DNA of 64,000 nucleotides, taken from assembly GCA_963835585.1 (NCBI GenBank), contig CAWIGF010000003.1:516530-580529 (forward strand), given 5' to 3'. This DNA comes from an uncultured Candidatus Woesearchaeota archaeon. Its GTDB lineage: Archaea; Nanobdellota; Nanobdellia; Woesearchaeales; UBA10107. The position numbers were made by a program, and so were the translations under genes. Shown piece after piece: positions 235-60,557 of the stretch; positions within the stretch are counted from its first letter, which is position 1, and the number at the start of each line of letters is the position of its first letter. The notes beneath the pieces were generated by a model. That model was not told the origin of the DNA. It was given only the letters and a program-made list of their open reading frames with translations, and ran no database searches.

Positions 235-323
235 GGCCGGTTAGCGCAGTCTGGTAGCGCACAGCACTTTTAACAAGTGCGGAAGCAATGCTGGGGTCGC
301 GGGTTCAAATCCCGTACCGGTCA
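235..323 (+). tRNA. tRNA-Lys (anticodon TTT) with ~15-nt intron
   Basis: Acceptor GGCCGGT/ACCGGTC (one G-U), D-arm GCGC-AGTCTGGTA-GCGC, anticodon stem CAGCA/TGCTG, loop CTTTTA|A. A 15-nt insert (273-287) sits at the canonical 37/38 position. T-arm GCGGG-TTCAAAT-CCCGT. Confidence 0.65.
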
Positions 324-383
324 TCAAGCTGCGAACGGAAGGCATGGAGCCTGCCGGTCATCAAAAAATAAGCAACAAACAAA

Positions 384-20618: not shown

Positions 20619-20724
20619 GCGGGGTTGCCAGAGCGGTCAAATGGGACAGGTTTAGGGGAGCTCAAAAGCATCTAAGAACCCTGTTGGCTTAGTGCCTTCG
20701 CAGGTTCGAATCCTGTGCCCCGCA
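20619..20724 (+). tRNA. tRNA-Leu (anticodon TAG; class II) with ~22-nt intron
   Basis: Acceptor GCGGGGT/GCCCCGC, Leu/Ser-type D-loop GAGCGGTCAAA, anticodon stem ACAGG/CCTGT. Loop TTTAGG followed by an insert containing CTAA complementary to the anticodon, then a variable arm GGC-TTAGT-GCC and T-arm GCAGG-TTCGAAT-CCTGT. An AAG anticodon cannot be fully excluded. Confidence 0.6.
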
Positions 20725-20911
20725 AGTTTTTGGATTTTGATATTTTTTGGATAAATTATCACAACATTTTTTAGTACTATCCAGAAACAAAAAAGAAATA
20801 TTTTGTTGATTATAATTCAGAACAAATGTGTTTGAAATCCATTAGATTTAAATATTAATTACTTGGAAGATATAATTGGAAAAGGCTATTTGGGTTTAAA
20901 AAAGAGGACAT

Positions 20912-39845: not shown

Positions 39846-40796
39846 TCAGATGTATTTCATGTAAATAAAAAAGAATTTTCTGAAAGTGTCTTCCATCTTC
39901 TCCAGCAAAAATCTCAGCAGCTTTGGCTTGTGACCGTTATCAAACGCATCCAGCGCATTAAAATAAGGGCCTCGCACGGTTTTCCTTATTATTAGGGGGG
40001 AATAGCCATTCTCCAGAAGAATTGCATTAATCAGAATCCTTCCGACCCTGCCATTCCCGTCCTCAAACGGATGAATCTTCTCAAACCTACCGTGGAATTC
40101 GGAAGCCATCTTAAGCGGATGCTCCTTTCCTTTGTTTTTTTCATACCATAAGACAAGCGCATTCATCTCTTTTTCAACGTCTTCAGGAGGCGTAGTTTTT
40201 ACGTTTCTCATCAAGAGAAAATTTGGTATTTTTTTAAATCCTACTTGAATTCCTGTGTCTTTCACAAGGACGGAATGGAGTTTGATTATATCCGCGATTG
40301 TTATTTTGATTTTGCCGGCAAACAAAAGCTCATTGGCATCCCTTGTATTTTTGGTATCATAAACCTCTCTCAAATCCTTTCCCTTGGGGAGTATGTTGTG
40401 GGAAAAAAACAGAGTTACATCTTTCAAAGTCAGTGAGTTCCCCTCGATTGCATTCGATTCATATGTGAAATTTGCAGTGAATCTATCCAGTATGTCCTTG
40501 AACTGCGCCTTTGTCAAACTTCTGATTATTTGTCTGTATTCAGCCTTGAACAATTCCAACTTCTCTATTTTTTGCTTGGTGAGAACATAATCAGGGATGT
40601 ACTTTGATGAGGCATATTTGGCATATTCCTCTTCCTCTTTTCTTAGAAAGTATTTCTTAGTTTCCGGTCCTTTTGCCTCTTCCGCGCTTTTGACCAGTTT
40701 CGAGGTTTTCTTCACGTTTCCGTTCGGCAGCCTAAATGAATGCTCTGCATACAAGTATTCTTTGCCATTGATTCTTTTCTTTCTTACGCTGACCAT
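39846..40796 (-). CDS. fic: Fic/Doc family protein (AMPylase-type motif HPFEDGNGRVGR)
   Basis: Canonical Fic motif HPFEDGNGRVGRILINAILL. The probable start is the internal M (MVSVRKKRING...), because the upstream in-frame codons cover a palindrome and a TATA-like element. Confidence 0.8.
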   Translation of the reverse strand: MVSVRKKRINGKEYLYAEHSFRLPNGNVKKTSKLVKSAEEAKGPETKKYFLRKEEEEYAKYASSKYIPDYVLTKQKIEKLELFKAEYRQIIRSLTKAQFKDILDRFTANFTYESNAIEGNSLTLKDVTLFFSHNILPKGKDLREVYDTKNTRDANELLFAGKIKITIADIIKLHSVLVKDTGIQVGFKKIPNFLLMRNVKTTPPEDVEKEMNALVLWYEKNKGKEHPLKMASEFHGRFEKIHPFEDGNGRVGRILINAILLENGYSPLIIRKTVRGPYFNALDAFDNGHKPKLLRFLLEKMEDTFRKFFFIYMKYI

Positions 40797-40914
40797 ACTC
40801 TTATTTACCCCTACAAATATATAAATGTTGTGTTTTTGTAGGGGTAAAAGAACCCATCGTCCAGCGAAACCCGGATTTGACAATATTTAAATAATAGTTT
40901 CTTTTTGCTGTTGC

Positions 40915-52195: not shown

Positions 52196-52268
<73 letters not shown>

Positions 52269-52273
52269 TTAAT

Positions 52274-52344
52274 GCGATGATGGTTAAATGGTAGAATATA
52301 GCCTTCCCAAGGCTGTGATCCGGGTTCGATTCCCGGTCGTCGCA
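52274..52344 (+). tRNA. tRNA-Gly (anticodon CCC)
   Basis: Acceptor GCGATGA/TCGTCGC, anticodon stem TAGCC/GGCTG, loop TTCCCAA, T-arm CCGGG-TTCGATT-CCCGG. 71 nt. Confidence 0.7.
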
Positions 52345-52354
52345 GTTGAAAGAA

Positions 52355-52466
52355 GCGATGATAGTTGAATGGTACAATACGACCTTGCCAATAGCGGCCG
52401 TCCGAGACGTTCGGATGTTTGCCAAGCAAACAGGTTGTGGCCCGGGTCCGATTCCCGGTCATCGCA
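52355..52466 (+). tRNA. tRNA-Gly (anticodon GCC) with ~41-nt intron
   Basis: Acceptor and D-arm are nearly identical to the Gly-CCC gene. Anticodon stem CGACC/GGTTG, loop TTGCCA|A, with a 41-nt insert at 52391-52431. The insert contains a TCCGA-gacgt-TCGGA hairpin and a second TTGCCAAGCAA copy of the anticodon loop. Confidence 0.65.
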
Positions 52467-52500
52467 TCATACCATAAATCCAATGCGACAACAAGAAACC

Positions 52501-52584
52501 GGTGGTTTAGATTTATAGGACGGCCCCCGGTCATCGCATGAATTTTGAATCTTCTTTTTTTGAATAAATTACTATTTTGCACAC
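52501..52584 (+). repeat. direct repeat A (tRNA-Gly 3'-end-like; downstream flank of fic cassette)
   Basis: GGTGGTTTAGATTTATAGGACGGCCCCCGGTCATCGCATGAATTTTGAATCTTC...TGAATAAATTACTATTTTGCACA. The ...GGCCC-CCGGTCATCGCA segment equals the tRNA-Gly(GCC) 3' end with the 11-nt T-loop deleted. Confidence 0.65.
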
Positions 52585-52627
52585 GTCAGACATAGCTAAA
52601 CTCTATTTGCAACGATCAGAGAACGGA

Positions 52628-53554
52628 CTATAATCTAAATTGATCTATAACAACTTCGAACATTTTCTCGCAGTATTTCTTGACATTTTTTACATTGTAA
52701 TAATCGGTTGCTTCATAATATTTTGCCCTTAATTTAACGGGAACAAATAGTTTCGGATAGTTGGATTTCATTAAAATCCAATTCATCAAAGCTCGCCCCG
52801 TTCTTCCGTTTCCGTCCTCAAATGGATGAATTTCGACAAATTGCGCATGTACCAAGCAAGCTAAGACAAAAGGATGAATCTTTCTTTTATTTTGTTCATA
52901 AAATTTAATCATTTCATTAAGCAGGGGCTTGACTTTTTCGGGTGACGGCGGAACAAACTCTGTTCCTTCAATTTTTACAGGAAAGAATCTTACCCGCCCA
53001 GGATAAATGACCCCTGTATTTTGTGTCAGAATTAAATTCATTTTCTCCAAAAACTCGATTGTTAACTTTCCCTTGTATCTTTTGATAAAATCTAGCGCTT
53101 CTCTTCCATTCAATGCTTCATTGTAGTCCTTTGGAGGAGCTCCTGATGGAATTTGTTTTTCCTTGATAACTAAAAATGTATCTCTCAAAGTTAATCTATT
53201 TCCTTCGATTGCATTTGAATTATAAGTAAATCTGATGACAAAATCAGTTTCTTCTTTTTCAAGTATCGTCTTTGGAATTGTTTTAAGATGATTACCGTAC
53301 ACTTCCTTAAAATCATCGATGATTTCAAGTTTATCTGCATCCAGATAGTTTTCGTTATAGACTTTGTATTCTTCGAGTTTCAATTCTTTTAATTTTTCTC
53401 CTATCTGTTCTCGTGTTGGTTTATGTTCACCTAACTTTATCCTTATTTTCTTCCATTTGTCTTTCCCGACTCTGATTGTTTTCCCCAGGTAGTAGAAGTA
53501 TTTGTTTCCAGATCGTATTCTATCAACGTATGCCACAGGATATTTATTGTCCAC
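52628..53554 (-). CDS. fic: Fic/Doc family protein (motif HPFEDGNGRTGR), paralog of 39846..40796
   Basis: 308 aa. Fic motif IHPFEDGNGRTGRALMNWIL. The N-terminal domain is shared with the other Fic protein. It uses an apparent GTG start, overlapped by a 9-bp inverted repeat (TTGTCCACA ... TGTGGACAA) that flanks a TATA-like box. Confidence 0.8.
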   Translation of the reverse strand: MDNKYPVAYVDRIRSGNKYFYYLGKTIRVGKDKWKKIRIKLGEHKPTREQIGEKLKELKLEEYKVYNENYLDADKLEIIDDFKEVYGNHLKTIPKTILEKEETDFVIRFTYNSNAIEGNRLTLRDTFLVIKEKQIPSGAPPKDYNEALNGREALDFIKRYKGKLTIEFLEKMNLILTQNTGVIYPGRVRFFPVKIEGTEFVPPSPEKVKPLLNEMIKFYEQNKRKIHPFVLACLVHAQFVEIHPFEDGNGRTGRALMNWILMKSNYPKLFVPVKLRAKYYEATDYYNVKNVKKYCEKMFEVVIDQFRL

Positions 53555-53691
53555 ATATTATATAAATCTTTCTATTTTGTGGACAACATATAATCAAAAA
53601 AATATCAGTGCCCAGAAATCTGGGCAAAAATCACAAGATATAAAAAGTCCAAGAACGTCCATGTCGCTGAAATAAACCATTTATAGCCTTT

Positions 53692-53780
53692 GGCGGTTTA
53701 AACCTATAGGTCGGTTCCCGATCGTCGCATGAATTTTAGATTTTCATATTACTTTCTGAATAAATTCTCTGTTTTTCATA
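53692..53780 (+). repeat. direct repeat B (tRNA-Gly 3'-end-like; upstream flank of fic cassette)
   Basis: GGCGGTTTAAACCTATAGGTCGGTTCCCGATCGTCGCATGAATTTTAGATTTTCATATTACTTTCTGAATAAATTCTCTGTTTTTCATA. It is about 75% identical to repeat A, and its tRNA-like end (TCGTCGCA) resembles the tRNA-Gly(CCC) 3' end. Confidence 0.65.
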
Positions 53781-54129
53781 AACAAAGTAGTCAGGGATAC
53801 AAATCATGAAGTTATCCTTCACAAATTATACTCAACCCACTCGCTAAAAAAAGCAATAGATTTTTAAGCATCATAAGTTTAGAAATTAGTATGAGGCTGA
53901 AATATTACGGTTTCTTATTTATGTGTTTGACGTTCGGAGTGATTTTCATAAGTGGCGTTACAGGAGAATCGCAGATATCGTGAAGAGCACAAATGCTGCA
54001 GAAGCAAAAGAAGCGTGCAGTGCAATGTCTTCAGCAAATTCCCCTGGGTGCCTGCAGGAAATCAGGGGATAATGTGCCTTCCTGAACCCATATCTTTATA
54101 AACAAAATATTTTCTTAACTCTATGAGCT

Positions 54130-54235
54130 GAGCCCGTAGCTTAGCCTGGTGGAGCGTCGGTCTTATATGGCAACGTTTCATTGAAACGGTGATTAGGAAC
54201 ACCGGTGGTCGAGAGTTCAAATCTCTCCGGGCTCA
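54130..54235 (+). tRNA. intron-containing tRNA, anticodon TAT (Ile) candidate
   Basis: Acceptor GAGCCCG/CGGGCTC, D-arm GCTT-AGCCTGGTG-GAGC, anticodon stem TCGGT/ACCGG, loop CTTATA followed by a ~33-nt insert with a CGTTTCA-TT-GAAACG hairpin. T-arm GAGAG-TTCAAAT-CTCTC, discriminator A. Confidence 0.55.
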
Positions 54236-54569
54236 CTTTTATTGATTTGAACCCCTAACTGAGAAAATTGAGTTATGGGGTCTCCTGATAAAGAATAATT
54301 AGATTTAGGCAAAAATGATATTTTCATCGTTTCTACATTTATTTTAGTTTTTTGCATGTTTTTGAGGAGACAAGGTTTTTAGTGATTATCTCCTTGACCG
54401 ACCCTTCGTTATAGACTTTGTAATGCCCATTCTTCATAAATCTTTTCCTATTTTTATGGATTTGAACCCTTGACCTAATTTTATTAATAAATACTGCCAA
54501 GAAATAATTATCCGAAACGGATATTTTCTGGATTTAGTTTAATTAACTTTTTTTGACAATTAGTCTTCT

Positions 54570-54764
54570 ATGAAATGTTTACATTGTAAAAAAGAACTTG
54601 AAGAACATGAATACAAATTTTGTATTACTTGTCTGAGAGCTTTGAAGCATAAGTATGCGAAAGAAGCATTGTCAATGACTGAACTTGAATTTGAGGACTG
54701 GCTAAATGAAAAATATGAGATTCAGTATAAGGCAGACCGCCACTTTAGAAGATTTCAAAACTGA
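54570..54764 (+). CDS. small Cys-pair protein (Zn-ribbon-like)
   Basis: 64 aa with MKCLHCKK...FCITC. First ORF of the low-GC island. Confidence 0.3.
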   Translation: MKCLHCKKELEEHEYKFCITCLRALKHKYAKEALSMTELEFEDWLNEKYEIQYKADRHFRRFQN

Positions 54765-55104
54765 AATCGGTTGGCTGATGATTTTCACAGCCTTGTATTT
54801 GCCGTTTTCAATAATTATTTCGCTGAAAGGAAATTACCTGCATCTTTTTTTATCATCTGTAATGTCAGGAGCTCTGCTTACGATTGAGTTCAGAGATATG
54901 TTCACTAAAGAAAACAAGCCAACCCCCATACAGATGAGGCCTCAGAGGAAGCAGGAGATACGCCATCCTGAAATTGAGCGTATCCCTGTTTCTTCTCCAT
55001 TTCCTTTCATGAATACAAACACGGAGGTAAAAAATGAAACCCAAGCAAATAATGATGTATCTGTTGTTGGGAATGATGCTGTTAACACCGATAGCGTTTG
55101 CTGA
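54706..55104 (+). CDS. hypothetical membrane protein (2 TM)
   Basis: 132 aa. It overlaps its neighbours in other frames, so the boundaries are uncertain. Confidence 0.3.
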   Translation: MKNMRFSIRQTATLEDFKTEIGWLMIFTALYLPFSIIISLKGNYLHLFLSSVMSGALLTIEFRDMFTKENKPTPIQMRPQRKQEIRHPEIERIPVSSPFPFMNTNTEVKNETQANNDVSVVGNDAVNTDSVC

Positions 55105-55333
55105 CAGCACATTTGACGACATTTTGAAACCCGTTGTCAAAATATATGATTTCGCAAAATATGCGGCATCAATTATTGCGATGATATTTCTGTTATTTGC
55201 AGGAATAACATACATGACATCAGGCGGAGATACACAAAAGCGTGAACAAGCAAAGAACATGGTTGCGTATGTTGTGATTGGCCTAATTGTAATTTGGGCA
55301 GCACCATACTTAGTGGACTTGCTGACAAAATGA
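55034..55333 (+). CDS. VirB2/TrbC-like pilin candidate
   Basis: 99 aa: a signal peptide (MKPKQIMMYLLLGMMLLTPIAFA) and two hydrophobic helices separated by a short polar loop (SGGDTQKREQAKN). This is the canonical conjugative-pilin topology and size. Confidence 0.45.
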   Translation: MKPKQIMMYLLLGMMLLTPIAFADSTFDDILKPVVKIYDFAKYAASIIAMIFLLFAGITYMTSGGDTQKREQAKNMVAYVVIGLIVIWAAPYLVDLLTK

Positions 55334-56649
55334 AAGCAATACTGCTTATGCTGTTGTTAATTCCGACAGCATTTGCTTTGGATTGTGCAAATGTTCAGGA
55401 TTCCACTAATTGCAATTATATTCTGAACAGCGACATTCCACAATCTGAGAAAAATGATTTAATTTCTAATTTAATTTATGTTGGAAATCAATTTCCTGAT
55501 TTTGATTCCGTTTTGAATTGGAATAAAGGACTTGATGTTTCAGAAAATCTTGGCTTCAAAACATATTCTTCGACTTACATAAAGAACGCTTGGATTAAAT
55601 CATTAGCTGTTGTTCCTTCTGTTGTTGATGAAACTTTGTTAGTTGCTCCAAACGGAACGATGCAATGCACGTATGATTATGATGTTGTTATTGACAAAAA
55701 GCTAATTGGAAACGACTGCAAGACAAATTACAAACTTCTTTCTCAAAAAGCAGAAGTCAAGAATTATGTCAATAATGTTTATCAGAACTCAGGAACTCTT
55801 GTCAAATATCAAAGCGATGCTGATGTTTTGAATTTTAAATCTGAATTGAATGTTGAAGCTAATGTTCAAATCGAACACTACAAAATCAGAAGATATTGCT
55901 GTTCAAGAGATGCTTTCGGTAGCTGTAAACATTACTGTACAGTTTGTGAATATAAAAGCACAGAAACAAAAACAGACAAATTGGTTGTTTCTGATTCCAT
56001 TAATGCTAAAAAAGAAAATGCTTTTCCCAAATTAAATCTTGAAGTTCTAAATCAATACAACGGAAACACAAAAATAAGATTTAATTATTCTGATGTTGAA
56101 GCATTTAGAATTGATTTTGCTGATTCTTACATTTCTGAAACAAGAACTTCTTACGTTCCTAATTTCACAATTTACAACATCATGCAGTTGTTTTCAAAAG
56201 AATTGATTGACAGAAATTCTCAAAATGTTGTTTTCTTAAATAACAATACATTTCTTGTGAAAAATACAAATGGCTGTTCAATTACTCTGTGGACACATTT
56301 TACTCAAATAAAACAATCTTGCAATTTAACTTATGTTCCTGTTTCTATTTCGATAAAAACTGATAAGTTTACTTACAAAGAAAACGAAACTATCAAAGTT
56401 TCAATTATTCCGAATGATATTTTTGTTAATTTAAATTATGGAGATATTAGCAAGTTAGCAAAAGGAAATTCTGAATTTATTGTCAAACAGCCGTTCAACA
56501 GAATTGTTGGAACTTACAAAGATGCTTCTGCTGACGCTTTAATCGCTGTGAAAACTGAGAATTGGACTACTTTATTTCAACTAGGAACATTTGCAGGAGC
56601 AAATCTTGCATTATTTGCGATGGTGAGAAAATTCAAAACTGCGGATTAA
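55330..56649 (+). CDS. secreted Cys-containing protein with C-terminal TM anchor (T4SS-associated surface/adhesin candidate)
   Basis: The ATGA start overlaps the pilin stop. Signal peptide MKAILLMLLLIPTAFA, 12 Cys, N/K-rich, C-terminal hydrophobic helix (LFQLGTFAGANLALFAMV). Confidence 0.4.
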   Translation: MKAILLMLLLIPTAFALDCANVQDSTNCNYILNSDIPQSEKNDLISNLIYVGNQFPDFDSVLNWNKGLDVSENLGFKTYSSTYIKNAWIKSLAVVPSVVDETLLVAPNGTMQCTYDYDVVIDKKLIGNDCKTNYKLLSQKAEVKNYVNNVYQNSGTLVKYQSDADVLNFKSELNVEANVQIEHYKIRRYCCSRDAFGSCKHYCTVCEYKSTETKTDKLVVSDSINAKKENAFPKLNLEVLNQYNGNTKIRFNYSDVEAFRIDFADSYISETRTSYVPNFTIYNIMQLFSKELIDRNSQNVVFLNNNTFLVKNTNGCSITLWTHFTQIKQSCNLTYVPVSISIKTDKFTYKENETIKVSIIPNDIFVNLNYGDISKLAKGNSEFIVKQPFNRIVGTYKDASADALIAVKTENWTTLFQLGTFAGANLALFAMVRKFKTAD

Positions 56650-56732
56650 CTAATTTAGCAACTTGTTTGCCTGAAAAGTTCTTTGATTTCATTCTTACAA
56701 TAATCAATGCTCCATTAACTCCATTAATCAAA

Positions 56733-57464
56733 ATGGCACAATCACTTCTTACCGAGCAAGTCAACGTAGAATTATTTCATGGATTGTGGGGAACAATGGT
56801 TTACGTTATCTCGATGTTTTACGGATTATATTTTATAATTGCAGGATTTAATTTAATGATTTCAGGATATGACGCAGAAAAAAGAGAAAAAGCAAAGTCT
56901 TGGCTGAAAAATACTGTGCTTATGGTTTTCTTTGTTCAAGCTTCATATTTATTGTATTCATTAGTTCTTGAATTAGCATCAGGATTAAGTTCAGGAGCGA
57001 TGAGCTTGATTGATGCAAACTTCTTTTTATTGACAACTGATAATTTAGCGAGTATTGGATTAGAAATAATGCTATTTCTTGCTTATGCACTTGTTCTTCT
57101 TTTAACTTCATTATTGCTTGTTCTTAGATACATTTGTGTTGGTGTTGGAGTTATGTTTGTTCCAATCGGAATTTTCTTTTACTTTACACCTATGCTTGAA
57201 GAATACGGAAAACTGATACTAAATGCACTTTCTGTGATTATTTTCCTTCCTTTTGTTCAGGTTTTGATTTTACTTGCTTCATCAAAGCTAATTTCAATGC
57301 CTATTTTTGCAAATATGAAAATCTTAGTGATGATTTCCTCATTTTTATTTATTGACTGCGTTATGATTTTGCTTTTCCTGTTTGTGATAGCAAAAGCAGC
57401 AATGTCGGCATTGCGTTCAGATGTTGGAAAGACAGCTTCAATGGTTTATGGTAAACTAACATGA
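56733..57464 (+). CDS. VirB6/TrbL-like polytopic membrane protein candidate
   Basis: About 243 aa from MAQSLL, with 6-7 TM helices. The first helix-loop region (FIIAGFNLMISGYDAEKREKAKSW) resembles the pilin-like ORF. Confidence 0.4.
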   Translation: MAQSLLTEQVNVELFHGLWGTMVYVISMFYGLYFIIAGFNLMISGYDAEKREKAKSWLKNTVLMVFFVQASYLLYSLVLELASGLSSGAMSLIDANFFLLTTDNLASIGLEIMLFLAYALVLLLTSLLLVLRYICVGVGVMFVPIGIFFYFTPMLEEYGKLILNALSVIIFLPFVQVLILLASSKLISMPIFANMKILVMISSFLFIDCVMILLFLFVIAKAAMSALRSDVGKTASMVYGKLT

Positions 57465-57760
57465 CTTACGAAATACCGCAACAGCTTCAATATGAAGAAA
57501 AGATTATATTCGGATTAAATTTCAAGCAGTTGCTATATGCAATTATATTTTTCCCTATTGGAATTATTATTTTTCTCAAGTCGGGATTAAATTTAGAGAT
57601 TAAATTAACACTCTCTTTAATCCCTATTTTAATCGGTGTTGCATTCATGTTCTTTGACTTGAAAGATTGGTTGAGTTCTGTTTGGCAGTGGCTGAAATTC
57701 AGAGAAGTGTTTCTTAATGGATTTGAAAATGAAAACGTTCTTGGGATTAAAGAATGTTGA
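57461..57760 (+). CDS. VirB3-like small membrane protein candidate
   Basis: 99 aa with 2 TM helices, immediately upstream of and overlapping the VirB4-like gene. This is the typical VirB3-VirB4 arrangement. Confidence 0.35.
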   Translation: MTYEIPQQLQYEEKIIFGLNFKQLLYAIIFFPIGIIIFLKSGLNLEIKLTLSLIPILIGVAFMFFDLKDWLSSVWQWLKFREVFLNGFENENVLGIKEC

Positions 57761-60557
57761 GAAAGGAGTTATTCAGGCACATGGAAAGAAAATTGCTTTG
57801 ATTAAGGTTGAGCCTACAAACTTTGCAATTAGAAATAATGATGAGAAAGAAGTTATTATCAAAGGATTTCAGAAGTTCTTGAACTCCCTTGATTTTCCGA
57901 TACAGATTTGCGTTGGAACAGAAGTTTTGAACATTGACAACTATCTGAACGTCTTGCAGTCAAGAGTAGATGAAACAATAAAGAAAACAAAGAATGATTT
58001 GTATAAAAAGCAGTTTGATTCATACAAAGAGCATTTATTGGAATTAATTAAAAATAATCAAGTTCTGAATAGGTCTTTCTATGTTGTAATTCCTGAAAAG
58101 AAAAGCATTAGTTTGGAAGTTCAGACAAATGTATGCCTTGAAAAATTAAAAGCACTTGATTTGAAAGTCAGAGAAATTAAGGATAATGAAGAAGCAACAC
58201 AAATTATTGCGGGATTTTTCAATAACTTGCAGGAAGATGAAGATAAGTCAGAGCTTCTTGAGAACGATAAAATAAGCGATAAGAATTTATTGCATTACTT
58301 AGTTGCTCCTAAATTCATTCTAAACCATCAAAAATCAATTCAGGTCAACAATAAGTTAGTAAGGACAATTACTGCCTCAGGCTATCCTCGAATTGTTGAC
58401 CCAGGATTCATGGACAGAATAATAACAGCGAATGGCGATTTTGATTTAAGTCTTGCATATTGAGCCTTATGCTATCGAAAGCATGATGTTAATGTTAAAT
58501 AAAGAATTGCAGAAGCAAAGAGCGGACTTGTATTCTGCTCAGATAAAAAATGCCGTCAATCCTTCTTTAGAAATAAAATACCAAGATACTAAGAATGTTC
58601 TTGAGAATTTGCAGAAAGGAAATGAGAAATTGTTTAATGTTTCGCTTTATGTTAATTGCAAAGCAAGAGATGAAAAAGAATTAAACATAACTATCAAAGA
58701 AAGTCGAGTCTGAATTAAATTCCATTATGATGATTCCGAAAGTTCCTTCTTTCAGAATGGCACAGGGAATTAAATCAGTTGCTCCATTTGGAATTGATGA
58801 TTTAAACATAAAAAGAAATATTCCTACTTCTGCCTTATCTGCTTTCTTTCCTTTTACTTCTCAATTCTTGCAAGTTGATGAAAAAGGAGTTTGGCTTGGA
58901 TTGAATAAAAATAATATTCCAATTATCAAAGACATATTTTCATTTTCAAATCCAAACGGAGTAATTATGGCTTCATCAGGAGCAGGAAAATCATACATGG
59001 CAAAATTATTTATTGCAAGACAATTACTGAACGGAACAAAAGTAATGGTTATTGACCCTCAATCAGAATATGTTAAATTATCTGAAACATATGGTGGTCA
59101 AACAATAACAATTTCAAAAACATCTGATACAATAATTAATCCTCTTGATTTAATGGGACATGATTATTCTGAAAAAAGATTAGCGTTAATGGATTTGCTT
59201 CCAGTTATGCTTGGCTCAGAAGAAACTTCTGAAATTCAAAAATCAGTTTTAGATAGAGCATTAACAGAAGCTTACTCAAAGAAAAGAATTACAAATGACC
59301 CTGAAACTTGGGTTAATGAACCGCCAATACTTTCTGATTTAGTCTCGGTAATTGGAAATAATGTCGAAGAAAGCAACAATCATAGAAAGACCCACGTATA
59401 ATTCATTAATCAATCGTTTGAATATGTATACAACAGGAGCATTTTCATTTTTGAATAGACAGACAAATATTAATTTTGATAATCGCTTTGTTGTTTTCAA
59501 CATTGGAGAAATGCCGAAACAAGTAAAGCCTGTTGTTATGTTCTTGATTCTTGATTATGTTTATATGAAAATGAAGAAAGACAGAGAAAGAAAACTTCTT
59601 GTTATTGATGAAGCGTGGTCTTTATTGTCAAGAGCAGAAGATTCTTCTTACATTTTTGAAATTGTTAAGACGTGTCGTAAGTTTAATTTAGGATTATTGT
59701 TAATCACTCAAGATGTTGCAGACTTATTAAATAGTCAGGCAGGAAATGCTGTTTTATCTAATTCTGCTTATACAATTATGTTAAGACAAAAACCCGCAGT
59801 TATTGACAGAGTTGGAGCTACATTTCATTTGAGTTCTTCTGAAAGAAACAGATTACTTACAGCAAATGTCGGTGAAGGATTAATCATAATGGAAAACGAC
59901 CATTCGGAAATTAAAATCGTTGCTTCTGAAAAAGAGCATGAATTAATCACAACAAATGCAGATGAATTATTGAAACAAGAAAATAAAGAAGAAGTCGTAA
60001 AGAAGAAACAAAACATAAACGTAAAAGTAGATGCTGATAATGGATTATTCAGAAAGAAAGAATTGACAAACCATGATATTGATTATCTTCTTGAGAAAGA
60101 TTACAAGATTTTATCTGCGATTGGTTTGCATGGCGGAAGAAGAGAAGATTATCTTGTCATGCCACGTTCAAATGAAAGTCCCATTCATTTCTTTTTATGC
60201 AAGACCATTTCCGATTTTGTAAAACAATATACTGAGAAAGTGTGGCTGTATCAAACAAAAAAGCCAGATATTGTTTTCCAAGCTGACGGAAAAATATTTG
60301 CGATTGAAATTGAAACAGGAAGCAGACTTACTTATCATGCAGAAATGTTTGACAAAAAAGTGGAACAGCTCAAAAAAGAGTATGGGGAGAATTGGTTGAT
60401 TGTTGTGTCGGACAGAAAAGAGAGAGCAGTATGCGAGGCATGGCAGAACGATTGTTCGGGGCGAAGTGGGGGAGTTTGTGCGGGGGTTAGTTCGGGCGGG
60501 TTGAGGAGGGTTAGAGAGGGGTCTGTGGGGGCAAAATTCGGGCAGATTACGGGTTAA
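57717..60557 (+). pseudogene. VirB4/TrbE/CedB-type conjugative ATPase, interrupted by three +1 frameshifts
   Basis: Four overlapping ORFs in frames 0/1/2/0 cover this span: 57717-58463, 58453-58713, 58727-59401, 59352-60557. The N-terminal VirB4 domain has EPTNFAIRNNDEKE...YVVIPEKK...VAPKFI. Walker A is VIMASSGAGKSYMAK. Walker B/DEAW is RKLLVIDEAWSLL, followed by LLITQDVADL. A ~200-aa non-ATPase C-terminal extension follows. Confidence 0.7.
60440..60545 (+). repeat. G-rich, C-poor tract with multiple G3-G5 runs
   Basis: GTTCGGGGCGAAGTGGGGGAGTTTGTGCGGGGGTTAGTTCGGGCGGGTTGAGGAGGGTTAGAGAGGGGTCTGTGGGGGCAAAATTCGGGCAGATTACGGG. Strong strand-asymmetric G enrichment inside an AT-rich island. It coincides with the end of the VirB4-like ORF. 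Confidence 0.6.

What the first reader, a model, noticed from the sequence alone, without database searches (positions are those of the whole stretch)
52486..53790. Fic toxin-like gene on a 1.2-kb cassette bounded by ~85-bp direct repeats carrying degenerate tRNA-Gly 3' ends, inside a tRNA cluster
Three tRNAs (Val, Gly-CCC, Gly-GCC) are followed within 35 bp by repeat A, whose ...GGCCC-CCGGTCATCGCA segment equals the 3' end of the adjacent tRNA-Gly(GCC) with the T-loop deleted. About 1.2 kb downstream, repeat B is a ~75%-identical direct copy whose tRNA-like end (TCGTCGCA) matches the other Gly tRNA. Between the repeats lies a single gene, a Fic/Doc-family protein (HPFEDGNGRTGR).

Duplicated tRNA 3' ends in direct orientation are the signature of site-specific integration (attL/attR) into tRNA genes. 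Here the flanked unit is tiny and has no integrase. Possible explanations:
- a remnant of an integrated element that delivered a Fic effector or toxin;
- a cassette mobilised in trans;
- a recombination product between the two Gly tRNA genes.

The repeats' conserved 5' halves (GG(T/C)GGTTTA.A..TATAGG.CGG) are not tRNA-like and could instead be a regulatory or RNA element.
Basis: seen in the sequence. Interest (0 to 1): 0.7.

Follow-up and report, generated by a model that had tools for sequence, protein, structure and literature searches.

The report
Fic gene between tRNA-end fragments
A well-conserved Fic enzyme gene sits in a tRNA gene cluster of a tiny (DPANN) archaeon between two decayed copies of a tRNA-Gly tail, most likely an old insertion scar and not an active mobile toxin cassette.

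Summary
Two ~90-bp direct repeats (A 52501-52590, B 53692-53783; 76-79% identical) flank one fic gene just after tRNA-Val, tRNA-Gly(CCC) and tRNA-Gly(GCC). Each repeat has about 25 nt of non-tRNA sequence, then the last 14-23 nt of a tRNA-Gly gene, then a T-rich trailer.

In seven related Woesearchaeota-like genomes the flanking genes are the same, but tRNA-Gly(GCC) and tRNA-Ile lie 98-200 bp apart or have other small genes between them. None has fic there. The window-specific segment is 52468-54084, so this spacer is a variable insertion spot. Next to it lie a decayed fic fragment and a type IV secretion-like mobile module. One relative has an integrase in the same tRNA cluster.

This is not a classical attL/attR pair. 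Neither repeat is part of a tRNA gene, no integrase is present, and both cores lack an intact T-arm.

Fic is not a toxin-antitoxin toxin. It is a self-inhibited, FICD-like class II Fic, 71-83% identical across more than 100 relatives, each with the same palindromic promoter, in varying genomic contexts and without these repeats.

Best reading: a fossil of a recombination-mediated insertion at a tRNA-Gly-derived site. In passing, relatives carry a covarying tRNA "top-half" hairpin family downstream of tRNA genes.

The parts
52196..52268 (+). tRNA-Val(UAC)
   Evidence: ARAGORN and Rfam, 72.9 bits.
52274..52344 (+). tRNA-Gly(CCC). It is absent from this position in all seven syntenic relatives.
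   Evidence: Relatives have Val followed directly by Gly(GCC).
52355..52466 (+). tRNA-Gly(GCC) with a 41-nt intron at position 37/38
   Evidence: ARAGORN with introns allowed. Rfam 49.1 bits in E-value mode. 94.7% identical to L028 6830-6943.
52501..52590 (+). Repeat A. It has a 5' non-tRNA half (52501-52521), a tRNA-Gly(GCC) 3'-end copy (GGCCCCCGGTCATCGCA, 52522-52538) and a T-rich trailer with TTTTTGAATAAATTA. Together with 52487-52500 it can form a weak hairpin (GCGA/TCGC plus ACCGG/CCGGT).
   Evidence: The fold is not better than shuffles (z -0.6). The trailer resembles the trailer of tRNA-Leu at 20725.
52628..53536 (-). fic gene, 302 aa, class II FICD-like, with the SNAIEGN inhibitory motif and the HPFEDGNGRTGR active site
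   Evidence: Pfam Fic 5.8e-22. Best PDB match is a FICD homolog, 3.8e-26, with SNAIEGN aligned to TVAIEGN. Identical to database protein P0001; 950 homologs at E<=1e-10 and the 120 listed are 71-100% identical.
53541..53592 (-). fic promoter and operator: the palindrome TTGTCCACA ... TGTGGACAA around a TTTATATA TATA box, about 5-55 nt upstream of the start codon
   Evidence: Inverted repeat I6. The regular expression used matched 16 of 17 fic loci from other genomes; the 17th (L014) differs by one base. Sequence further upstream is unrelated between loci. DNA homology among loci begins here and ends at the stop codon.
53692..53783 (+). Repeat B. It has a 5' non-tRNA half, a tRNA-Gly T-loop-to-3'-end copy (TCGGTTCCCGATCGTCGCA, 53711-53729) and a T-rich trailer. 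It has no upstream strand that could close a hairpin.
54130..54236 (+). tRNA-Ile(UAU) with an intron. This is the right-hand anchor of synteny: homology to relatives resumes at about 54085, the tRNA-Ile promoter.
54405..54574 (-). Decayed fragment of the 5' part of a fic gene (about codons 1-60). It includes an 18-nt exact match to fic.
   Evidence: Collinear 182-nt alignment, 60% identity, E 3e-5, to 53351-53526. 18-nt exact repeat D10. The protein-level signal is weak.
54706..60557 (+). Context: a mobile-element-like module with a NikA-like gene, two type IV secretion pilin genes and a split VirB4/TraG-like ATPase. It has lower G+C (0.31-0.36) than the DNA to the left of the tRNA cluster (0.42).
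   Evidence: Pfam. The NikA-like gene is homologous to one in the integrase-bearing element of L028, including 57 nt at 93% identity. Composition.

Best explanation
A and B are two diverged copies of one ~90-bp unit. The unit is a tRNA-Gly gene tail (T-loop or T-stem to the discriminator base) with a tRNA-type T-rich trailer, preceded by about 25 nt of other sequence. They mark an old recombination-mediated insertion of about 1.2-1.6 kb, carrying fic with its own promoter, into the spacer between tRNA-Gly(GCC) and tRNA-Ile. In this archaeal clade that spacer is a variable insertion spot.

The most economical mechanism is Campbell-type. A circular or incoming DNA carried fic plus a related copy of the unit, derived from a relative whose tRNA-Gly ends TCGTCGCA. 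It recombined with the resident unit just downstream of tRNA-Gly(GCC), probably within the shared block TCGCATGAATTTT. This left one hybrid unit on each side. The recombinase was supplied in trans or has been lost.

Today the structure is a fossil. There is no integrase, the units differ at about one position in four, and their tRNA-like cores lack a complete T-arm.

fic is not a toxin cassette. It is a self-inhibited, FICD-like AMP-transferase that is strongly conserved in Woesearchaeota-like archaea and is probably autoregulated through the palindrome over its TATA box.

Shown: the repeats, the insertion relative to relatives, the Fic class, the conserved promoter, and the absence of an integrase from the window. 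Inferred: the recombination mechanism, the crossover point, and autoregulation.
For: 1. Insertion. Seven syntenic loci found through ScpA homologs keep the order ScpA-prefoldin-FtsY on one side and Val, Gly(GCC), Ile tRNAs on the other.
- The Gly-Ile spacer is 98-200 bp in L035, L054, L025 and L028.
- It holds unrelated genes in L027 (152 aa), L036 (270 aa) and L053 (two small genes).
- None has fic there.
- Homology to the window stops at 52467 and resumes at about 54085.

2. tRNA-tail nature of the repeats.
- A matches tRNA-Gly(GCC) 14 of 14.
- B matches the T-loop-to-3'-end region 17 of 19.
- The trailers resemble that of a genuine tRNA-Leu elsewhere in the window, with the motif at the same offset.

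3. The neighbourhood is recombination-prone.
- 12-nt duplicates of tRNA tails 45-60 nt downstream occur at four tRNAs in the window, L025 and L028 combined. Among the 40 tRNAs examined the upstream control gave 0 hits.
- An 11-nt duplicate follows tRNA-Lys at 317-364.
- A decayed fic fragment lies right after tRNA-Ile.
- A type IV secretion / NikA-like module follows.
- L028 has a tyrosine integrase next to the fourth tRNA of the same cluster.
- tRNA gene fragments left by integration are well documented in archaea (PMC9897764).

4. Both units share homologous flanks on both sides of the core and the same shortened T-arm. This fits recombination between two related copies of one unit better than two independent tRNA ends. 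TCGTCGCA is the tRNA-Gly(GCC) end in relative L053.

5. Fossil state.
- No integrase homolog in 64 kb.
- No further copies in the window.
- None by exact degenerate pattern in GTDB species genomes, JGI metagenomes or IMG/VR.
Against: - Neither repeat is part of a functional tRNA, and A lies 34 nt beyond the tRNA. A textbook tRNA-targeted integration is therefore not shown.
- No relative with an A/B-type unit was found, so the 'resident unit before insertion' is hypothetical.
- fic shows no sign of recent transfer. Its nearest DNA relatives are only 73-76% identical. Its conserved unit ends exactly at the promoter and the stop codon, and it has no repeats in the other fic loci retrieved.
- fic may simply have been relocated by ordinary rearrangement.
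- 85 bp at 76% identity is too diverged for homologous recombination as it stands, so either the units have decayed since or a site-specific enzyme was involved.
- The public-collection scans were exact-pattern scans and would miss diverged copies. The source genome itself is not in the genome collection that was scanned.
Confidence: 0.55

Rival explanations
1. Purely local duplication. The unit downstream of tRNA-Gly(GCC) was duplicated by unequal crossing-over or replication slippage. fic arrived, or was retained, between the copies by unrelated rearrangement. No site-specific recombination or mobile element was involved.
For: - A and B are paralogs of each other and share the same truncated core and both flanks.
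- Another direct repeat of a tRNA trailer lies at 54237-54259 and 54452-54474.
- In L053 the tRNA-Gly trailer is also duplicated after a short element.
- fic shows no mobile-element hallmarks in other genomes.
Against: - It does not explain how a 1.1-kb foreign segment came to lie exactly between the copies.
- It does not explain why B carries a different acceptor-strand variant, one that matches a relative's tRNA-Gly.
- The locus lies beside clear mobile DNA.
Confidence: 0.2
2. The repeat units are functional elements and not scars. They might be degenerate or AT-rich relatives of the tRNA 'top-half' hairpins seen after tRNA genes in relatives, or paired terminator/insulator modules. Such modules would stop plus-strand transcription from the tRNA operon running antisense through fic and on into tRNA-Ile.
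For: - In L025, L028 and L053 a covarying 19-bp hairpin sits at the equivalent place after tRNA-Gly(GCC) and ends in the same CCGGTCAYCGCA.
- A starts with GCGA, ends with TCGCA, and has an ACCGG/CCGGT stem of similar geometry.
- Both trailers carry T-runs of the kind that terminate archaeal transcription, and they resemble a real tRNA trailer.
Against: - The covariance model of the hairpin family does not detect A or B even with filters off.
- Folds of A and B are no better than shuffles.
- B lacks any 5' closing strand.
- No Rfam match.
- With only two copies, no covariation test is possible.
Confidence: 0.15
3. A still-mobile single-gene cassette, integron-like or mobilised in trans. It would excise by recombination between A and B and reinsert at tRNA-Gly-like sites.
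For: - fic lies at different places in different genomes.
- In L009 fic is part of an array in which a ~40-nt imperfect-palindrome repeat follows successive genes, including toxin-antitoxin pairs.
- Integrons are known in DPANN archaea (PMC9668308).
Against: - A and B are not palindromic and have no R''/R' boxes.
- They accompany fic in no other genome.
- They are 24% diverged, and the longest identical run is 13 nt.
- No recombinase is nearby.
- fic DNA divergence indicates old vertical history.
Confidence: 0.07
4. The repeats come from recombination between the two resident Gly tRNA genes, with A from Gly(GCC) and B from Gly(CCC).
For: A ends TCATCGCA like Gly(GCC), and B ends TCGTCGCA like Gly(CCC).
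Against: - The distinction is a single base.
- A and B share about 25 nt upstream and about 45 nt downstream that neither tRNA gene has.
- Both tRNA genes are intact.
Confidence: 0.03

Closest known systems
tRNA gene fragments (attL/attR direct repeats) left by integrative elements in archaeal genomes, e.g. PYG1 in Pyrococcus yayanosii and the TKV elements (as reviewed in PMC9897764)
   Same: - Direct repeats contain the 3' part of a tRNA gene, starting in the T-loop/T-stem region.
- They lie at a tRNA cluster and bound lineage-specific DNA.
- Sites without the insert exist in relatives.
   Different: - Here neither repeat belongs to the intact tRNA.
- The tRNA-like part is only 14-23 nt, against about 40-50 nt in the cited cases.
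- The repeats are also homologous outside the tRNA part.
- The cargo is one gene, with no integrase.
- The repeats are 24% diverged.
FICD/HYPE-type class II Fic AMP-transferases
   Same: - HxFx(D/E)GNGRxxR active-site motif.
- A cis inhibitory (S/T)xxxE(G/N) helix N-terminal to the core.
- The best solved-structure matches are FICD proteins.
   Different: - Archaeal, with no TPR or transmembrane region.
- It has a ~60-aa N-terminal extension of unknown role.
- Substrate and activity were not tested.
- Sequence identity to FICD is modest.
Integron gene cassettes and attC sites (known in DPANN archaea, PMC9668308)
   Same: - A single gene is bounded by related recombination-site-like repeats.
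- Fic/Doc and toxin-antitoxin genes are typical integron cargo.
- An array-like arrangement with fic is seen in L009.
   Different: - A and B are not imperfect palindromes and lack the AAC/GTT boxes.
- No IntI is present.
- The repeats are tRNA-derived.
tRNA acceptor/T-arm minihelices ('top-half' tRNA mimics)
   Same: - The hairpins found in relatives at the position of repeat A consist of an acceptor-like stem stacked on a T-stem-like stem.
- They end in the discriminator base of the neighbouring tRNA.
   Different: - Natural minihelix genes next to their cognate tRNA genes were not found in the literature search.
- Window repeats A and B do not meet the model of that family.

Membership tests
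tRNA-targeted integrated element (attL/attR) | One of the two direct repeats forms the 3' end of an intact tRNA gene | tested here: not met
   The intact tRNA-Gly(GCC) ends at 52466. Repeat A begins at 52501 and B at 53692.
tRNA-targeted integrated element (attL/attR) | The repeats contain a copy of the tRNA 3' part | tested here: met
   A matches 14 of 14. B matches 17 of 19 from the T-loop to the discriminator base.
tRNA-targeted integrated element (attL/attR) | An integrase gene lies inside or next to the bounded segment | tested here: not met
   fic is the only gene between the repeats. tblastn with the L028 tyrosine integrase finds nothing in the 64-kb window. Pfam scans of 20 ORFs between about 40.9 and 63.9 kb show no recombinase. 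ORFs elsewhere in the window were not scanned with Pfam.
tRNA-targeted integrated element (attL/attR) | Related genomes have the site without the insert | tested here: met
   L025, L028, L035 and L054 have 98-200 bp between tRNA-Gly(GCC) and tRNA-Ile and no fic.
Integron cassette / attC | An imperfect-palindrome attC with R''/R' (..AAC / GTT..) boxes at the 3' end of the cassette | tested here: not met
   No significant hairpin in A or B. By inspection of the sequence, no inverted-repeat partner and no AAC/GTT boxes.
Integron cassette / attC | An IntI integrase or a cluster of at least two attC sites | tested here: not met
   No tyrosine recombinase homolog in the window. Only two copies of the repeat.
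Fic/Doc toxin-antitoxin module (class I Fic or Doc/Phd) | A separate small antitoxin gene adjacent to, and co-oriented with, the toxin | tested here: not met
   No ORF of 40 aa or more is co-oriented and adjacent to fic. The 5' and 3' flanks are the palindromic promoter and repeat A.
Class II (FICD-like) Fic AMP-transferase | Active-site motif HxFx(D/E)GNGRxxR | tested here: met
   HPFEDGNGRTGR is in the translation. Pfam Fic 5.8e-22.
Class II (FICD-like) Fic AMP-transferase | An inhibitory (S/T)xxxE(G/N) motif in cis, N-terminal to the Fic core | tested here: met
   SNAIEGN aligns with TVAIEGN of the FICD homolog 5jj6.
Class II (FICD-like) Fic AMP-transferase | AMPylation / de-AMPylation activity on a protein substrate | not testable with these tools
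   This needs biochemistry.
tRNA 'top-half' hairpin family found here in relatives (model R1) | A 19-bp hairpin made of an acceptor-like stem, a T-stem-like stem and an apical stem, scored by the covariance model | tested here: not met
   R1 scores the four family members at 59-76 bits. It gives no hit on A or B with filters off at E<=10.
tRNA or tRNA pseudogene (Rfam RF00005) | A cloverleaf match | tested here: not met
   No RF00005 hit on A or B at E<=1.
MITE / transposon | Terminal inverted repeats plus a fixed-length target-site duplication | tested here: not met
   No inverted repeats at the ends of the 52501-53783 segment. The repeats are direct and about 90 bp long.

The most novel reading that the evidence does not exclude
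Repeat A (and its partial copy B) could be a diverged member of an undescribed class of elements in Woesearchaeota-like archaea. These are ~50-nt 'top-half tRNA' hairpins that sit just downstream of a tRNA gene. They copy that tRNA's acceptor stem, always with one mismatch or bulge, and they show strong covariation. On this reading the hairpins are the actual recombination or landing sites at which single genes such as fic are inserted next to tRNA genes. That would be a tRNA-mimic analogue of integron attC sites. Alternatively they could be expressed tRNA-like RNAs recognised by tRNA-processing or charging enzymes.
Probability: 0.15. Interest if true: 0.75.

Novelty: new member of a known kind. 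Interest (0 to 1): 0.38.

Why it matters
As found, the locus is one more example of tRNA clusters acting as recombination hot spots that accumulate tRNA-tail fragments and cargo genes, here in a poorly studied DPANN lineage.

Two by-products are of more interest.
- A FICD-like Fic enzyme with an invariant palindromic promoter is better conserved than the housekeeping protein ScpA across Woesearchaeota-like genomes. This points to an important, unstudied regulatory AMPylase in these reduced cells.
- Relatives carry a covarying tRNA 'top-half' hairpin family downstream of tRNA genes. It has no Rfam entry, and the one literature search made found no description. If these hairpins are functional RNAs or recombination sites, they would be a new kind of tRNA mimic.

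Tried and rejected
- Exact degenerate-pattern scans for the repeat found nothing. GGNGGTTTANANNTATAGGNCGG gave 0 hits in GTDB species genomes and in IMG/VR. TATAGGNCGGNNCCCGNTCNTCGCA gave 0 hits in JGI metagenomes. The source genome is evidently not in the genome collection, so dispersal within its own 681 kb could not be tested.
- A look-up of the 308-aa ORF found nothing because the real start is the downstream GTG (302 aa, P0001).
- BLAST and nhmmer of A and B against 23 fic loci and against all loci held found no A/B-like sequence around fic elsewhere.
- Scans of IMG/VR for the core of the relatives' hairpin gave 16 hits. All are chance matches in GC-rich phage coding sequence.
- Looking for att duplicates of the integrase-bearing element in L028 found none within the 7 kb held.
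- The idea that the 5' halves of A and B derive from the intron or body of tRNA-Gly was rejected (p 0.4-0.99). A's left flank resembles the tRNA-Ile 3' exon (family-wise p 0.015-0.04), but B's does not, so this remains only a hint.
- Split-tRNA 3'-half, promoter and H/ACA readings of the repeats were considered and dropped. There is no complete T-arm, no complementary partner in the window, and T-runs follow immediately after any putative transcription start.
- The protein-level similarity of the ORF at 54339-54500 to Fic is not significant. The DNA-level collinear alignment is significant.
Full report
**What is in the window**

The window comes from a low-G+C archaeon of the DPANN / Woesearchaeota kind.
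- It encodes prefoldin, FtsY, ScpA and intron-containing tRNAs.
- The closest database proteins are labelled Woesearchaeota or Nanoarchaeota.

The tRNA cluster was confirmed as follows.
- tRNA-Val is at 52196-52268 and tRNA-Gly(CCC) at 52274-52344.
- tRNA-Gly(GCC) is at 52355-52466 and has a 41-nt intron. Default tools missed it, but it is confirmed. It is 94.7% identical to an Rfam-called tRNA in a relative.
- tRNA-Ile(UAU), also with an intron, is at 54130-54236.

Repeat A (52501-52590) begins 34 nt after tRNA-Gly(GCC). Repeat B (53692-53783) lies 1191 bp further on.
- They are 76% identical over 59 ungapped nt, and 79% by mean column identity over the 127-column alignment that includes flanks, with one 5-nt indel.
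- They are the only two matches to their consensus in the window. No shuffle gave two matches.
- An independent Logan assembly reproduces the region exactly.

**Anatomy of the repeat unit**

Each unit has three parts.

1. About 25 nt, GG(T/C)GGTTTA.A..TATAGG.CGG.
   - This part is not derived from the body or intron of tRNA-Gly.
   - A's left flank resembles the start of the tRNA-Ile 3' exon (family-wise p 0.015-0.04). B's does not.
2. A tRNA-Gly tail.
   - A has CCCGGTCATCGCAT, identical to the end of tRNA-Gly(GCC).
   - B has TCGGTTCCCGATCGTCGCA, which aligns without gaps to the T-loop, the T-stem 3' strand and the acceptor 3' strand.
The same TCGTCGCA end is found in tRNA-Gly(GCC) of relative L053.
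3. A ~45-nt T-rich trailer.
   - Its motif TTTTTG(A/G)ATAAATTA also follows, at the same offset, a genuine tRNA-Leu at 20619-20724.
   - It looks like this genome's usual tRNA trailer or terminator.

Neither unit folds better than shuffled sequence. Neither matches Rfam.

A and B share both flanks and the same shortened T-arm. They are therefore copies of one another, not two independent tRNA ends.

**The gene between the repeats**

fic (52628-53536, minus strand, 302 aa, GTG start) has the canonical HPFEDGNGRTGR motif.
- N-terminal to the core it has SNAIEGN. In the alignment with the FICD homolog 5jj6 this lines up with the inhibitory TVAIEGN motif.
- There is no adjacent antitoxin-sized gene.
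- It is therefore a self-inhibited class II, FICD-like Fic and not a toxin-antitoxin toxin.

The gene is strongly conserved.
- 950 homologs have E<=1e-10, and the 120 best are 71-100% identical.
- In a genome where ScpA is only 50% identical to the window's, Fic is 78% identical. P0184 and P0044 both have a 542,637-nt longest contig.

DNA homology among 23 fic loci runs from about 54 bp upstream of the start codon to the stop codon and no further, at 73-76% identity.
- The upstream 54 bp are a palindrome, TTGTCCACA...TGTGGACAA, around a TTTATATA box.
- The search pattern matched 16 of 17 loci and the 17th differs by one base. Everything further upstream is unrelated.
- I infer an operator for a dimeric repressor, possibly Fic's own N-terminal region.

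The genomic neighbours of fic differ from genome to genome. None of those loci has A/B-like sequence. A tRNA lies near fic in only 3 of about 17 contexts.

**Comparison with syntenic loci**

ScpA homologs (62-67% identical) led to seven relatives that keep ScpA-prefoldin-FtsY-DUF4013-DEAD-enolase on one side and the tRNA cluster on the other.

| Locus | What lies between tRNA-Gly(GCC) and tRNA-Ile |
|---|---|
| L035, L054 | 98-190 bp of spacer |
| L025, L028 | A ~50-nt hairpin element plus spacer |
| L053 | A hairpin element plus two small genes |
| L027 | A 152-aa gene |
| L036 | A 270-aa gene |
| Window | Repeat A, fic, repeat B and about 300 bp |

- Homology to the window stops at 52467 and resumes at about 54085, the tRNA-Ile promoter. 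The window-specific segment is therefore 52468-54084.
- tRNA-Gly(CCC) is also an addition peculiar to the window.
- L028 has a tyrosine integrase beside the fourth tRNA of the cluster.
- That L028 element shares a NikA-like gene with the window's 54706-55104, including 57 nt at 93% identity.
- In the window that gene heads a module with type IV secretion pilins and a split VirB4/TraG-like ATPase, at lower G+C.
- Directly after tRNA-Ile lies a decayed fragment of a fic 5' region (54405-54574; 60% identity over 182 nt, E 3e-5).
- The window has no integrase homolog.

**tRNA-tail duplicates are a local habit**

- Among the 40 tRNAs examined, 12-nt duplicates of a tRNA tail 45-60 nt downstream occur at four tRNAs in the window, L025 and L028 combined. 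None occurred in an upstream control.
- tRNA-Lys at 235-323 has an 11-nt duplicate.
- A generic scan of JGI metagenomes for 'tRNA-Gly tail, 36-66 nt, same tail' gave five loci from diverse archaea. In all five the two free positions were identical in both copies, and the interiors were unrelated.
- tRNA gene fragments left by integration are well documented in archaea (PMC9897764).

**Most likely history**

Insertion at a hot spot is well supported. The mechanism is inferred.

The units resemble each other on both sides of the tRNA-like core. I therefore favour recombination between a resident unit downstream of tRNA-Gly(GCC) and a related unit on incoming, probably circular, DNA that carried fic.
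- The crossover would lie near the only long identical block, TCGCATGAATTTT.
- This makes A a hybrid of resident-left and incoming-right sequence, and B the reverse.
- It explains why A's core equals the adjacent tRNA, while B's equals a tRNA-Gly variant seen in a relative.
- The enzyme is missing and the cores are no longer T-arm-like, so the structure is a fossil.

Rivals are a purely local duplication, a functional terminator or RNA role for the units, and an active cassette. They are weighed in their own section. None is excluded by direct evidence.

**A hairpin family in relatives**

The elements after tRNA-Gly(GCC) in L028, L025 and L053, and after tRNA-Val in L025, form one family.
- They share a 19-bp hairpin in which 97% of cells are paired, against about 33% when the partners are slid.
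- Nine pairs show changes on both sides.
- The outer stem copies the acceptor stem of the tRNA just upstream (Gly or Val), with one mismatch or bulge.
- The next stem and its flanking TT/ATT align to a T-arm.
- An extra GNRA-type hairpin sits in the 'T-loop'.
- The native tRNA trailer follows the element and not the tRNA. The element is therefore an insertion or duplication at the tRNA's end.
- There is no Rfam match, and the literature search found no description.

Repeat A occupies the same position and has the same terminal sequences. It fails the family model, however. I do not file it as a member.

**Verdict**

The finding is real and is best read as tRNA-tail debris bounding an old insertion of a conserved FICD-like fic gene at a tRNA-cluster hot spot.
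- The toxin idea, the 'two Gly tRNAs' idea and the 'RNA element' idea are not supported.
- The window feature is a new member of a known kind, of modest interest.
- The hairpin family in relatives and the conserved Fic operator deserve separate follow-up.

Noticed in passing
L028 6765-6814 (-); L025 5735-5786 (-) and 6417-6467 (-); L053 661-709 (-): A family of ~50-nt hairpins lies 5-20 nt downstream of tRNA-Gly(GCC) or tRNA-Val. The outer stem copies that tRNA's acceptor stem with one mismatch or bulge. The inner part resembles a T-arm with an extra hairpin in the loop. Of 19 base pairs, 9 show compensatory changes. There is no Rfam match.
   Followed up: partly
window 53541-53592, and upstream of fic in L001, L005 and L008-L022: A near-invariant palindrome, TTGTCCACA-N-TTTATATA-N-TGTGGACAA, overlaps the fic TATA box in every genome examined. 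It is a probable operator. DNA conservation starts exactly there.
   Followed up: partly
window 54405-54574 (-): A decayed copy of the first ~60 codons of fic lies right after tRNA-Ile, with an 18-nt exact match to fic. Nearby is a direct repeat of the tRNA-Ile trailer (54237-54259 and 54452-54474), and an inverted partial T-arm copy at 54459-54475.
   Followed up: partly
window 317-364: The tail of tRNA-Lys(UUU) plus 4 nt (CCGGTCATCAA) is duplicated 37 nt downstream, just before the rpoH-like gene. The intervening 26 nt can form a small hairpin. Default ARAGORN called this tRNA Leu; with introns allowed it is Lys with a 15-nt intron.
   Followed up: no
window 20619-20724 and 52355-52466: Two intron-containing tRNA genes, Leu(UAA) and Gly(GCC), are missed by default ARAGORN and by Rfam at gathering threshold on the whole window. 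tRNA-Ile carries the rare UAU anticodon.
   Followed up: yes
L009 4935-4972, 5558-5595 and 8305-8342: In GCA_043803105.1 a ~40-nt imperfect-palindrome repeat (GCAAC..TATCG...CGATA..GTTGC) follows fic, then a small two-gene cassette, then a VapB/ParE pair. A second fic lies in between and a tRNA directly upstream. The arrangement looks like an integron-type cassette array without an integrase.
   Followed up: partly
window 39846-40883 (-): A second, distant Fic-family gene (345 aa, 33% identical over 239 aa to the fic studied here).
   Followed up: no
window 54706-60557: A type IV secretion-like module: a NikA-like gene, two T4SS pilin genes, and a VirB4/TraG-like ATPase split into two ORFs (58727-59401 and 59352-60557). 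G+C drops to 0.31-0.36. GrpE and DnaK follow.
   Followed up: partly
L025 5515-5584; L027 6189-6248; L028 6461-6524; L035 929-1013; L036 3096-3193: Between tRNA-Ile and the next tRNA (Glu) the relatives share a small hairpin (GCGAGA..TCTCGC, with GTGAG..CTCAC in L028). Its loop (GGTATAAG) is complementary to a downstream CTTATACC, and the two covary in L028 (GTATGAG and CTCATAC). This may be a pseudoknotted spacer element.
   Followed up: no
window 53609-53626: A perfect 7-bp hairpin, TGCCCAG-AAAT-CTGGGCA, followed on the minus strand by a T-run, lies between repeat B and the fic promoter. It is terminator-like for minus-strand transcripts entering from the right.
   Followed up: no
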